From: Escherichia coli
GTDB taxonomy: Bacteria; Pseudomonadota; Gammaproteobacteria; Enterobacterales; Enterobacteriaceae
NCBI RefSeq assembly: GCF_003334305.1
Contig: NZ_QOWS01000019.1
DNA: 64,000 nucleotides
Strand: one strand, 5' to 3'
Shown here: positions 45,001 to 48,000 of the stretch, piece after piece
Layout: the number at the start of each line of letters is the position of its first letter
Position numbering within the stretch: the stretch's first letter is position 1
Program-made: the position numbers

Positions 45001-48000
45001 AATAAAGTTAATTTCGAAACACTAAAATTCATAATGCAAACAGGGACGCACCGCTAGCAGCGCCCCTAGCGGTATCCTATAAAAAAACACACCGCGCCGC
45101 TAGCAGCCCCCCCTAATATAAAATAATGTTTTTTATAAAAATAGTCAGTACCACCCCTACAAAACGGTGTCGGCGCGTTGTTGTAGCCGCGCCGACACCG
45201 CTTTTTTAAATATCATAAAGAGAGTAAGAGAAACTAATTTTTCATAACACTCTATTTATAAAGAAAAATCAGCAAAAACTTGTTTTTGCGTGGGGTGTGG
45301 TGCTTTTGGTGGTGAGAACCACCAACCTGTTGAGCCTTTTTGTGGAGTGAGTTAAATTATTTACGGATAAAGTCACCAGAGGTGGAAAAATGAAAAAATG
45401 GATGTTAGCCATCTGCCTGATGTTTATAAATGAGATCTGTCTGGCCACTGATTGCTTTGATCTTGCAGGCAGGGATTACAAAATAGATCCTGATTTACTG
45501 AGAGCAATATCATGGCAAGAATCCCGTTACCGGGTTAATGCCATCGGTATTAATCCGGTAACGGGATATGGCAGCGGACTGATGCAGGTAGATTCCCAGC
45601 ATTTTAACGAACTGGCCCGCTACGGAATTAAGCCGGAACATATGACAACAGATCCCTGCATGAACATTTATACCGGTGCTTATTATCTGGCAATAGCATT
45701 TAAAAAATGGGGCGTCACCTGGGAGGCCGTTGGTGCATACAATGCCGGATTCAGGAAAACCGAACGCCAGAACCAGAGGCGTCTTGCCTACGCATCAGAT
45801 GTTTACCGGATTTATACCGGGATAAAAAGCAGTAAAGGTATCCGGGTTCCGACCACGAAGAAATCACTTTCCCAAATGAACAGTGTGCAGAACAATTAAT
45901 ATTGTATACATTGTCAAATACCGGTTATGCCGCGACAGCGGCATGGAAGGCCACACACAAAAATATCATATGAGTGATAATGCTGACTGGCCGAAGCCCC
46001 GCAAAGCGGGAACCCATATTATATATATCCGGTAACTGCGTAGCCTCCTGCCAGACCATTTTTCGCGGGCACAATATTTACAGACTACCGAAAAGCCAGT
46101 TGATGAAATTGAGGCATATCAGACGACATAGCAATGCCGAAGGATGACAATATAAGTAAAGCCCCGAAAATTTTTCGGGGCTTTACCTATATTATCACGA
46201 CTTCCACTCCCTGAACTGTTCGGCAATCATCCATAATGCTTTGTTGATTCTTATATCACCATCAATACCTGTAATGGCTCTTGTCCTGGTATTTTTCCCG
46301 GAGGCACTTCGCCCCGATAATCCACCTTTTATCATATTCTCCTGAACCCGCTGCCAGGTTGTCCAGAGATCGTTCTGTTTATCCTCCCGACGACGGGGAG
46401 TAATTATCTGTTCAGGCGTCACCGGCGTTTTATTTTCATCTTCATACCTGACCATCAGTGCAGCTCTGCCAAATAAATGTTGCTCGTCACTGTTAAGATG
46501 AATTTCTTTCATCGCCTCCATATTATCAGTGACCTTATCAAAGACACCGAGCACTTCATACGCTCCCTCGATAACCTGCCCGACAATATCACCTTTATGT
46601 GGAACGCGGATTTCGCCAAAATTATTTCCGCACACCAGGCCATTTGTGCAGACAAAACGAAAAATTCCGGGGATCATCTGATAACTGGATGAACCATCAT
46701 GTGAATTAAGCAGGATAATTTCAGGAACTTCCTGCCCGTTAATATGCCCTTCCCTGCGAAGACGTAACATATGTTTACTGTATTCGCGACGTCCCAAATC
46801 ACGAACCCGACTCTGACAGGCAAAGAATGGCTGGAAACCTTCATCACGTAACTTATTGATGATATTGATTGTTGGAATATACGTATAACGTTCACTCCGG
46901 GACTCATGTTTATCACCGGAAAACACCGAAGGCACAAACTGCATTAATTCATCATCCGTTAAAGGACGTTCACGGCGGATGGAATTATACCGACCAAAAC
47001 GGGAAGCTAATCGCATAACAGCTACTCCTTTATGAAAGAATAAATTTAATAAAAAATTTTTCCGCTTAATATCATCCCTCCCGATCTCCATTAACAAGAT
47101 TGCAACAATCAGGAGGGATATTCATCACATCCGGTCAGCAGATAGCCCGGATATCGAGGCCGGTACGCTTAATCTGACGCAGGAACTGTTTGAAGTGATC
47201 GGCTTCCGCAATGTTGATATGGCGGAACTGCGTATCCACACCCCGGCTGAGCGCATAGCTATAGCTGAAGGCCATCTTTTCCGGGTGGCTTTTGCGATAT
47301 TTTTTCAGCTCAGTCAGGCTGCTGAATTCCAGGACGTCCCACTCTTCCCCGGTGTATTTTTTCTTCCCGGCAACAAGAAGCGTGTACGACGCGATGTTAA
47401 CGTGGATATTTCGGGTACTCATCCTGCTTTCTCCTCTCTCTGGTTTTCAGCCCCCATCATCTGTTGAGTTTCGGGAGCCGCGGTTTTGACGTTTTGCGGG
47501 GACCTGCCGTTTGTTCCCTCCGGTATTCACCATCACCTGTTTGAGAACCTTCGCCGCAAGGGGCATCACTGCCACGGCCTGACGCACCTGTCCTGGGCAG
47601 AACGCAAAATTTTTTACCGGGTTTTGGGTAAAAAATTTTGTGGGCTGTTCATTTACCCTGGACAGTCAGTGCGGCAGGTTGTGGCTGTATCAGCTCCCGG
47701 CGACAGGGGCTTAAACAGGTGAATGGCACCGGACACAACAACGGGCAGGAACCCGCCGCAACGACGTGAAGCGCGGTTTGCGAAACGGCGTTGCCCCTTA
47801 CATCCCGGCGGCCTTTTGCCGGGATGCCGGGAGCGCAGGCCACGGCGCGACAGAGGCGGCGCGACCGGAACGGTCGCTGCAAGCCCGGGGTTTCGCGTCA
47901 GGGATGGAAGCCCGCCAGGGCGGAGACAGCTCCGCTGGCTCCGTTCACGACAGCCCGCCCCGCCAGGGGGACGCCCGGAAAAGGCATAAGCAGGAGAACA

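What the first reader, a model, noticed from the sequence alone, without database searches (positions are those of the whole stretch)
46195..47422. First operon to enter the recipient encodes two uncharacterised proteins
Immediately behind repeat copy 1, and closest to oriT on the transferred strand, are a 95-aa protein and a 273-aa protein, both with good ribosome binding sites. They would be the earliest genes presented to the recipient, yet I cannot assign either a function.
Basis: inference. Interest (0 to 1): 0.4.

Follow-up and report, generated by a model that had tools for sequence, protein, structure and literature searches.

The report
F-plasmid early leading operon ygeA–ygeB
These two genes are the already described ygeA–ygeB (orf95–orf273) operon of F-type conjugative plasmids, which published work on F shows is switched on from the incoming single DNA strand within minutes of transfer; what the two proteins do chemically is still unknown.

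Summary
The two ORFs are real: 95 aa at 47135-47422 and 273 aa at 46195-47016, both on the minus strand. The window is an IncF plasmid, 100% identical over this region to pCS0010A-like plasmids. The proteins are 97% and 99% identical to F-plasmid YgeA (YubO, ORF95) and YgeB (YubP, ORF273, R1 "protein 32").

"Repeat copy 1" is the homologue of F's single-strand promoter Frpo1/ssp1a. The nick motif puts the transferred strand on the window's plus strand, so that strand is the template for both genes.

The first gene to enter is orf169 (45390-45899). It faces the other way and cannot be read from the incoming strand. This operon is therefore the first transcribable one, not the first to enter.

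Early transient YgeA production, its dependence on Frpo1, and conjugation defects of deletion mutants are published for F (Couturier 2023; Wen 2025).

Function remains open. YgeB is a DUF932 protein with a confident predicted structure, no solved relative, and a set of His/Asn/Cys/Arg/Asp/Glu residues kept even in distant phage homologues. YgeA belongs to a small family seen only in Enterobacterales and sat directly behind an Frpo-like element in every locus where this could be checked. A published "anti-restriction" tag for DUF932 was not supported here.

Verdict: already known and ordinary for this plasmid type; the biochemistry is still worth solving.

The parts
45290..45300 (+). oriT nick motif GTGGGGTGT|GG. 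The nick falls between 45298 and 45299, which defines the plus strand as the transferred (T) strand, entering 5'->3' towards higher coordinates.
   Evidence: Single exact match, plus strand only. Sequence read. The nick position within the motif is from established knowledge of F oriT.
45390..45899 (+). orf169 / gene X / ygfA / yubQ, an SLT lytic transglycosylase. It is the first gene to enter, but the T strand is its sense strand, so it is not transcribable before second-strand synthesis.
   Evidence: ORF; annotated as SLT domain protein; NCBIfam IagB-like match; behaviour of F ygfA in PMC9849209.
45895..46083 (+). Homologue of F ssiE, a single-strand initiation (priming) signal, in the spacer between orf169 and ORF273.
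   Evidence: Matches the F ssiE sequence (D90180.1) listed in Samuel et al. Supplement 4. The region is 96% identical to F.
46156..46186 (.). 14-bp G+C-rich hairpin (GTAAAGCCCCGAAAATTTTTCGGGGCTTTAC) between the convergent orf169 and ORF273. Probable bidirectional terminator that ends the operon.
   Evidence: Terminator scan; conserved in F.
46195..47016 (-). ORF273 = YgeB / YubP / 'protein 32'. DUF932 protein, 31.6 kDa, pI 8.95.
   Evidence: 99% identical to F. Pfam PF06067 E=2.8e-52. AlphaFold2 pLDDT 92.3. Conserved polar residues. pI.
47017..47134 (-). 118-bp spacer between the two genes, carrying the AAGGAG ribosome binding site of ORF273. No terminator or consensus promoter was detected on the minus strand.
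   Evidence: The 8-bp inverted repeat in the spacer is not kept in F (5 differences).
47135..47422 (-). ORF95 = YgeA / YubO. 11.1 kDa, pI 9.63. First cistron after the single-strand promoter.
   Evidence: 97% identical to F. No Pfam, NCBIfam, PHROG, PADLOC or PDB match. Family of 233 clusters. dN/dS 0.13.
47440..48066 (+). Repeat copy 1, the homologue of F Frpo1 / ssiD / ssp1a (class-1 single-strand DNA promoter). The long imperfect hairpin spans about 47460-47815, with an A/T-rich apex at about 47620-47640. It folds on the T (plus) strand and drives transcription towards lower coordinates.
   Evidence: Repeat families D2-D7. Alignment with F upstream of orf95 and with copies 2 and 3, 89% mean column identity. 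Blastn against F: 90% identity to the Frpo1 region and 95% to the Frpo2 region. DNA fold -167.8 kcal/mol, z=-9.2. Matches F ssiD in Samuel et al. Supplement 4.

Best explanation
This is the ygeA-ygeB (orf95-orf273, yubO-yubP) operon of the F-type plasmid leading region. It is a two-gene unit induced in the recipient on transfer (zygotic induction).

Proposed sequence of events. Items marked 'for F' are published experiments on the near-identical F locus, not results on this plasmid.
1. TraI nicks the plus strand at 45298/45299, and that strand enters the recipient 5' end first.
2. About 2.2-2.5 kb later, roughly 3 s at the published ~790 nt/s, repeat copy 1 arrives. As single-stranded DNA it folds into a long hairpin that mimics a double-stranded promoter (Frpo1/ssp1a).
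3. Host RNA polymerase then transcribes back towards oriT using the incoming strand as template. It makes one mRNA for ORF95 and then ORF273, which ends at the 46156-46186 hairpin.
4. Second-strand synthesis removes the hairpin and switches the promoter off. The result is a short burst of both proteins in the new host and little or none in established donors (shown for F).

Protein function is inferred, not shown. Both are small basic cytoplasmic establishment factors that act in the first minutes after entry.
- YgeB is a member of DUF932, a very large family found in mobile elements. I think it is most likely an enzyme or a metal-dependent factor acting on nucleic acid or a host target, not a DNA mimic.
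- YgeA is an independent first cistron found only in Enterobacterales. Going by the F genetics, it tempers or cooperates with YgeB.
For: Identity and anatomy (tested here):
- 100% DNA identity to IncF plasmids such as pCS0010A, with the gene order traM / oriT / SLT / DUF932 / hypothetical / hok / psiB.
- 97% and 99% protein identity to the F genes.
- The Frpo1 homologue forms a hairpin with z=-9.2.
- The nick motif is on the plus strand only.
- There is a terminator hairpin after ORF273, and no consensus sigma-70 promoter on the minus strand upstream of ORF95.

Early expression and importance (literature on F):
- YgeA-sfGFP appears before ss-to-ds conversion, is transient, is absent from donors, and is lost in delta-Frpo1.
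- Transconjugant frequencies: delta-Frpo1 25%, delta-ygeA 3.9%, delta-Frpo1 delta-ygeAB 33%, wild type 93%. delta-ygeB was not obtainable.
- ygfA, which faces the other way, is expressed only after conversion (PMC9849209).
- RNA-seq after donor elimination shows the Frpo1-regulated genes enriched in recipients (PMC12672017).
- ssp1a/ygeB is a site where conversion can start in a transcription-dependent way (bioRxiv 2026.01.09.698686).

Protein inference (tested here):
- The YgeB model is confident (pLDDT 92.3).
- H82, N104, H106, C123, N125, H140, R209, D212, Q225 and E226 are invariant or nearly so across 112 diverse members, and are kept in phage homologues of 26-31% identity.
- Both proteins are basic (pI 8.95 and 9.63).
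- DUF932 has 5,589 representative clusters. It is found in plasmids, in CP4-57-like islands (yfjQ, 66% identity) and in jumbo and other phages.
- It is the third-largest family enriched in leading regions in Samuel et al. 2024, Supplementary Table 1.
- An Frpo-like element ends 0-29 nt before the start codon of the ORF95-like gene in all five loci where blastn detected one (L001, L002, L003, L015 and the window).
Against: - No experiment on this particular plasmid; expression and phenotypes are carried over from F.
- The delta-Frpo1 phenotype in F could partly reflect loss of priming or DNA-conversion functions of the hairpin, rather than loss of the two proteins.
- The YgeA model is poor (pLDDT 63.9), and nothing links YgeA physically to YgeB.
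- The two genes occur apart in related plasmids.
Confidence: 0.85

Rival explanations
1. [quoted passage not shown] 2024.
For: - It sits in the leading region, is encoded on the T strand and lies under a single-strand promoter, the same layout as ArdA, KlcA, PsiB and the anti-CRISPRs (PMC11541004).
- In related plasmids the same operon carries a methylase, an antirestriction gene or HigBA between the ORF95-like gene and DUF932.
- In CP4-57 yfjQ lies in the same island as an antirestriction gene.
- DUF932 also occurs in phage regions full of small accessory genes.
Against: - The published tag rests on a structural hit of 1 of 4,661 members to P1 Hdf.
- Profile comparison of DUF932 with P1 Hdf and DarA gives probabilities of 0.8% and 0.2%.
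- No PADLOC, NCBIfam or Pfam anti-defence match.
- The protein is basic (pI 8.95), unlike the acidic DNA mimics ArdA and Ocr.
- The F deletion phenotypes were seen in matings between laboratory E. coli K-12 strains, where no restriction barrier is expected (the strain inference is mine).
Confidence: 0.2
2. YgeA and YgeB form a toxin-antitoxin-like or mutually balancing pair, whose burst in the recipient enforces plasmid retention or arrests the host briefly.
For: F genetics: delta-ygeA is much worse than deleting the promoter or both genes (3.9% vs 25-33%), and delta-ygeB alone could not be constructed. This suggests each protein is harmful without the other.
Against: - The genes are 118 bp apart, not overlapping or translationally coupled.
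- Neither matches any TA family in Pfam, NCBIfam or PADLOC.
- They are separable in nature. ORF95-like genes occur without DUF932 (Salmonella plasmid with HigBA instead; pKOX-137). In pKP13-53 DUF932 has its own Frpo-like element. DUF932 is about 24 times more widespread by cluster count (5,589 vs 233 clusters, counted in differently clustered libraries).
Confidence: 0.15
3. YgeB acts on the incoming DNA itself. For example, it could bind primer-template junctions or hairpins (ssiE, Frpo) and help or time complementary-strand synthesis.
For: - The protein is basic, with conserved Arg residues.
- The operon is flanked by two single-strand initiation signals, ssiE and Frpo/ssiD.
- In an IncN plasmid DUF932 is adjacent to ssb.
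Against: - Rifampicin does not abolish complementary-strand synthesis in F, so no newly made plasmid protein is required for conversion.
Confidence: 0.15

Closest known systems
F plasmid ygeA-ygeB (orf95-orf273; yubO-yubP) under Frpo1/ssp1a
   Same: - 97% and 99% protein identity.
- Same order: Frpo / orf95 / orf273 / terminator / ssiE / orf169 / oriT / traM.
- Same orientation relative to the nick.
   Different: - Only a few substitutions.
- The apex region of the hairpin in this plasmid resembles its own copy 3 rather than F's Frpo1.
- This plasmid has three class-1 copies, whereas the literature describes two for F.
E. coli K-12 cryptic-prophage DUF932 proteins YfjQ (CP4-57) and YafZ (CP4-6), UPF0380
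   Same: Same length (273 aa) and 66% identity to YfjQ, with the conserved residues shared. The YfjQ gene lies in an integrative-element module that also carries antirestriction and RadC-like genes.
   Different: Chromosomal. No Frpo element or oriT context was examined. Preceded by a GTPase gene (yfjP), not by an ORF95-like gene.
IncI1 (ColIb-P9/pESBL) ssi1-3-driven leading operons (ardA, psiB, ssb)
   Same: Same class-1 single-strand promoter and the same logic of a burst of transcription templated by the T strand.
   Different: Different cargo with known functions (ArdA, PsiB, SSB). No ORF95 or DUF932 was reported there in the passages read.
P1 Hdf/DarA antirestriction proteins
   Same: Both belong to mobile elements and act at DNA entry. 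One DUF932 member had a published structural hit to Hdf.
   Different: No detectable profile similarity. Hdf and DarA are packaged virion proteins, not genes induced after entry.

Membership tests
F-type leading-region operon ygeA-ygeB under Frpo1 | Proteins orthologous to F ORF95 and ORF273 | tested here: met
   97% (92/95) and 99% (269/273) identity.
F-type leading-region operon ygeA-ygeB under Frpo1 | Located between an Frpo1-type hairpin and orf169/oriT, and transcribed towards oriT with the T strand as template | tested here: met
   Gene order. Nick motif on the plus strand at 45290. Both genes are on the minus strand.
F-type leading-region operon ygeA-ygeB under Frpo1 | Upstream element homologous to Frpo/ssiD that folds as a long stem-loop in the T strand | tested here: met
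   90% identity to the F Frpo1 region and 95% to the Frpo2 region. Fold -167.8 kcal/mol, z=-9.2. Matches the ssiD sequence.
F-type leading-region operon ygeA-ygeB under Frpo1 | Transient expression in the recipient before ss-to-ds conversion, dependent on Frpo1 | not testable with these tools
   Shown for F YgeA-sfGFP and by RNA-seq (PMC9849209; PMC12672017). Not measured for this plasmid.
DUF932 (Pfam PF06067; UPF0380) | Full-length match to the family profile above threshold | tested here: met
   E=2.8e-52, model positions 1-227 of 227. phrog_12094 E=1e-138.
DUF932 (Pfam PF06067; UPF0380) | Family-wide conserved residues present (HM.R.R, NSHDG, C.NG, R..H.G, RR..D, QEN..GG) | tested here: met
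   Alignments of 112 and 11 sequences.
TIGR03299 phage/plasmid-like protein | Score above the curated cut-off (110.7 bits) | tested here: not met
   19.6 bits over a partial stretch. A distant relative at best.
Anti-restriction proteins (DarA/Hdf; ArdA/Ocr DNA mimics; ArdB/KlcA) | Sequence or profile similarity to a known anti-restriction family | tested here: not met
   hhalign probability 0.8% (Hdf) and 0.2% (DarA). No Pfam, NCBIfam or PADLOC hit.
Anti-restriction proteins (DarA/Hdf; ArdA/Ocr DNA mimics; ArdB/KlcA) | Strongly acidic DNA-mimic surface (ArdA/Ocr type) | tested here: not met
   pI 8.95 (ORF273) and 9.63 (ORF95).
Anti-restriction proteins (DarA/Hdf; ArdA/Ocr DNA mimics; ArdB/KlcA) | Relief of restriction in vivo | not testable with these tools
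   Needs mating or phage assays in restriction-proficient (R+) recipients.
Type II toxin-antitoxin pair | Tightly coupled adjacent genes that co-occur obligatorily, with at least one recognisable TA domain | tested here: not met
   118-bp spacer. The genes are found apart. No TA domain.
Type II toxin-antitoxin pair | One product toxic and neutralised by the other | not testable with these tools
   Only indirect hints from the F deletion phenotypes.

The most novel reading that the evidence does not exclude
DUF932/YgeB is the founding member of a new enzyme or metal-binding fold that mobile elements of all kinds (plasmids, integrative islands, jumbo phages) deploy in the first minutes after DNA entry. 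It would act on a host component or on the entering nucleic acid. YgeA would be an add-on specific to Enterobacterales that restrains it. This would explain why removing YgeA alone is far worse for F transfer than removing the whole operon.
Probability: 0.2. Interest if true: 0.65.

Novelty: already known. Interest (0 to 1): 0.3.

Why it matters

This operon is the first thing such a plasmid can express in a new host. In F, disturbing it lowers transfer 3- to 24-fold.

DUF932 is the third-largest gene family enriched in plasmid leading regions and has thousands of relatives in islands and phages. Even so, it has no solved structure and no known activity. Solving it would fill one of the largest remaining gaps in how conjugative DNA establishes itself. 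The locus in this window adds no new biology beyond what is known for F.

Tried and rejected
- **Sequence annotation of ORF95.** Pfam, NCBIfam, PHROGs, PADLOC, and PDB by phmmer and by profile all gave nothing. A profile search of 5.8 billion proteins only widened the family to 233 clusters, all 'hypothetical' and all from Enterobacterales.
- **Anti-restriction link to P1 Hdf/DarA.** Rejected.
- **Domain fusions as functional hints.** The long DUF932 'fusions' look like chimeras with neighbouring island genes (Ag43-like or YeeP-like fragments) or like duplicated assemblies. The one clean N-terminal extension (P0271) has no Pfam match.
- **Context of distant DUF932 representatives.** The contigs were too short to be informative.
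- **Conventional double-strand promoter upstream of ORF95 or ORF273.** None passed the consensus scan on the minus strand.
- **-35/-10 boxes inside the hairpin.** I did not manage to place them convincingly and make no claim about them.
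Full report
**What is there.** The window around the finding is the oriT region of an IncF plasmid.
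- The transfer genes traA, traY, traJ and traM run on the minus strand up to 44975.
- A non-coding stretch follows.
- Next comes a 169-aa SLT transglycosylase gene on the plus strand (45390-45899).
- The two reported ORFs follow on the minus strand: 273 aa at 46195-47016 and 95 aa at 47135-47422.
- A 3-kb query across the region is 100% identical to many Escherichia and Salmonella plasmids such as pCS0010A (IncFIB/FIC, MOBF, MPF_F).
- The annotated order there is traM / SLT / DUF932 / hypothetical / hok / psiB / ParB-like, continuing further into the leading region.

Both ORFs have Shine-Dalgarno sequences 8 nt before the ATG.

**They are real genes.**
- ORF273 matches Pfam DUF932 over the whole model (E=2.8e-52).
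- ORF95 matches no Pfam, NCBIfam, PHROG or PADLOC family. It does have homologues in 3,053 plasmid records, 92% of them typed conjugative.
- Against diverged homologues, synonymous sites are saturated while amino-acid change is limited. ORF95 vs a Pantoea plasmid gives dN/dS 0.13; ORF273 vs yfjQ gives pS 0.80 and pN 0.26.

**Identity.** The proteins are 97% and 99% identical to the F-plasmid products encoded just before gene X and oriT. In the literature these are orf95/orf273, yubO/yubP, ygeA/ygeB, and for the larger one 'protein 32' of R1.

**The promoter.**
- It aligns with the region upstream of orf95 in F (89% mean column identity across the four sequences). By blastn it is 90% identical to F's Frpo1 region and 95% to F's Frpo2 region.
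- It contains the F ssiD/Frpo sequence listed in Samuel et al. Supplement 4.
- As single-stranded DNA, the plus strand of 47423-48100 folds into a very long imperfect hairpin of -167.8 kcal/mol, against -121.9 ± 5 for shuffles (z=-9.2).
- No consensus sigma-70 promoter is found on the minus strand upstream of either gene. A strong 14-bp hairpin at 46156-46186 closes the operon.

**Which strand enters, and in what order.** The F nick motif GTGGGGTGT|GG occurs once, on the plus strand at 45290. The plus strand is therefore the transferred strand, and it enters 5' to 3' towards higher coordinates. The order of entry is:
1. orf169;
2. an ssiE homologue at 45895-46083;
3. the terminator;
4. ORF273, 3' end first;
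5. ORF95;
6. the Frpo hairpin.

The transferred strand is the template for the minus-strand genes but the sense strand for orf169. So orf169 is the first gene in, and ORF95-ORF273 is the first operon that can be transcribed from the entering strand. This matches what was measured for F. YgfA (orf169) appears only 10-20 min after conversion. YgeA appears before conversion, peaks at about 5 min and then stops (PMC9849209).

**What is already known experimentally (F).**
- Deleting Frpo1 abolishes early YgeA-sfGFP production.
- Transconjugant frequencies after 3 h were: wild type 93%, delta-Frpo1 25%, delta-Frpo1 delta-ygeAB 33%, delta-Frpo1 delta-ygeA 14.5% and delta-ygeA 3.9%. delta-ygeB alone could not be built.
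- Donor-elimination RNA-seq confirmed that Frpo1- and Frpo2-controlled genes are enriched in recipients. That study classed Frpo/ssi as class-1 single-strand promoters (PMC12672017).
- A 2026 preprint renames Frpo1 as ssp1a. It shows early, transcription-dependent conversion events at the ygeB locus. It also shows that rifampicin does not abolish conversion, so new plasmid proteins are not required for second-strand synthesis.
- Samuel et al. 2024 list DUF945/DUF932 (YubP/YgeB) as family 3 among leading-region-enriched families, with 4,661 members.

**What the proteins might do: new analysis.**

*YgeB.*
- It gives a confident AlphaFold2 model (pLDDT 92.3, pTM 0.87). The model has an N-terminal alpha/beta sheet domain followed by a helical domain.
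- The family is huge, with 5,589 representative clusters. It spans plasmids, K-12 cryptic elements (yfjQ, 66% identity) and jumbo and other phages.
- A set of polar residues is invariant or nearly so in 112 diverse members: H82, N104, H106, C123, N125, H140, R209, D212, Q225 and E226. They are retained in phage homologues of 26-31% identity.
- This pattern is more typical of a catalytic or metal site than of a passive binder. That is an inference, and I could not verify 3D clustering.
- The protein is basic (pI 8.95), so it is not an ArdA/Ocr-type DNA mimic.
- The 'Anti-restriction' tag in Samuel et al. traces to one member's structural hit to P1 Hdf. Profile comparison with Hdf and DarA gives probabilities below 1%.

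*YgeA.*
- It is a small basic protein (pI 9.63) with an invariant ...E-A-x-H-F-K-Q-F... helix.
- Its family has only 233 clusters, all from Enterobacterales. It includes a 40%-identical IncN homologue.
- Its model is weak, and fold hits are uninformative.

**Are the two genes a unit?** Comparative contexts say they are separable.
- In a Salmonella F-like plasmid, the ORF95-like gene sits in the same slot but is followed by higBA, with no DUF932.
- In pKOX-137 it is followed by small ORFs and an antirestriction gene.
- In an Enterobacter plasmid a methylase and several small genes lie between it and DUF932.
- In pKP13-53 both the ORF95-like gene and DUF932 have their own Frpo-like element directly upstream.
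- In every locus where blastn detected an Frpo-like element near an ORF95-like gene, the element ends 0-29 nt before its start codon (L001, L002, L003, L015 and the window).
- Where DUF932 is present in the F-like loci examined, it is the last or second-to-last gene before the SLT gene.

So this is a variable early-expression slot with a conserved first cistron and a common last cistron, not an obligate two-protein system. The odd F genetics (delta-ygeA worse than losing both genes) still suggests a functional interaction, so I keep that as a rival reading.

**Verdict.** It is the well-described ygeA-ygeB unit of F-like plasmids, it is not literally the first gene to enter, and its early expression and knockout phenotypes are published. 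Its biochemical function is open. The most useful additions here are these:
- the rejection of the anti-restriction and DNA-mimic reading;
- the evidence for a new fold with a deeply conserved polar site in DUF932;
- the modular architecture of the operon.

Novelty is 'already known', and interest is modest.

Noticed in passing
window 47440-48066, 52831-53456, 56090-56713: There are three copies of the Frpo/ssi class-1 repeat, and they are mosaic. Around the hairpin apex, copy 1 matches copy 3. F's Frpo1 matches this plasmid's copy 2 instead. This suggests recombination or gene conversion between copies.
   Followed up: partly
window 45895-46083 (+): A homologue of F ssiE, a single-strand priming signal, fills the spacer between orf169 and the end of ORF273. 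It is 96% identical to F across the region.
   Followed up: partly
window 52181-52813 (-): The plasmid ssb gene behind repeat copy 2 is 96% identical to F ssb over residues 1-176. Its C-terminal tip ...DDIPF is replaced by ...DDTRSERL... and a roughly 33-aa extension. No ssb CDS appears at the corresponding position in the PLSDB gene table for pCS0010A, which omits pseudogenes. From general knowledge, the DDIPF tip is the partner-binding hub of SSB. This could be a real frameshift or a sequencing error.
   Followed up: partly
window 48321-48482 (hok ORF) and 48480-48652 (sok, minus strand): A hok/sok-type (flm) type I toxin-antitoxin locus lies just upstream of repeat copy 1. Rfam sok RF01794 scores 92.7 bits.
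   Followed up: partly
window 60982-61411: Ten tandem 43-bp repeats (90% matches) lie next to two minus-strand ORFs of 323 and 391 aa (61502-62473 and 62473-63648). The layout is consistent with a sopC centromere beside sopB and sopA. That identification is from my recall of the F layout and was not tested.
   Followed up: no
L015 (pKP13-53-tet(A)) 3578-4000 and 6337-6720: In this Klebsiella F-like plasmid a second Frpo-like element sits directly upstream of the DUF932 gene. DUF932 is therefore driven separately from the ORF95-like gene.
   Followed up: partly
window 47447-47587 (-) and 47898-48098 (-): Small ORFs of 46 and 66 aa lie inside the Frpo repeat. An overlapping 39-aa CDS is annotated as a hypothetical protein in pCS0010A. 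They lie in DNA that is conserved as a repeat, so they are probably not genes, but this was not tested.
   Followed up: no
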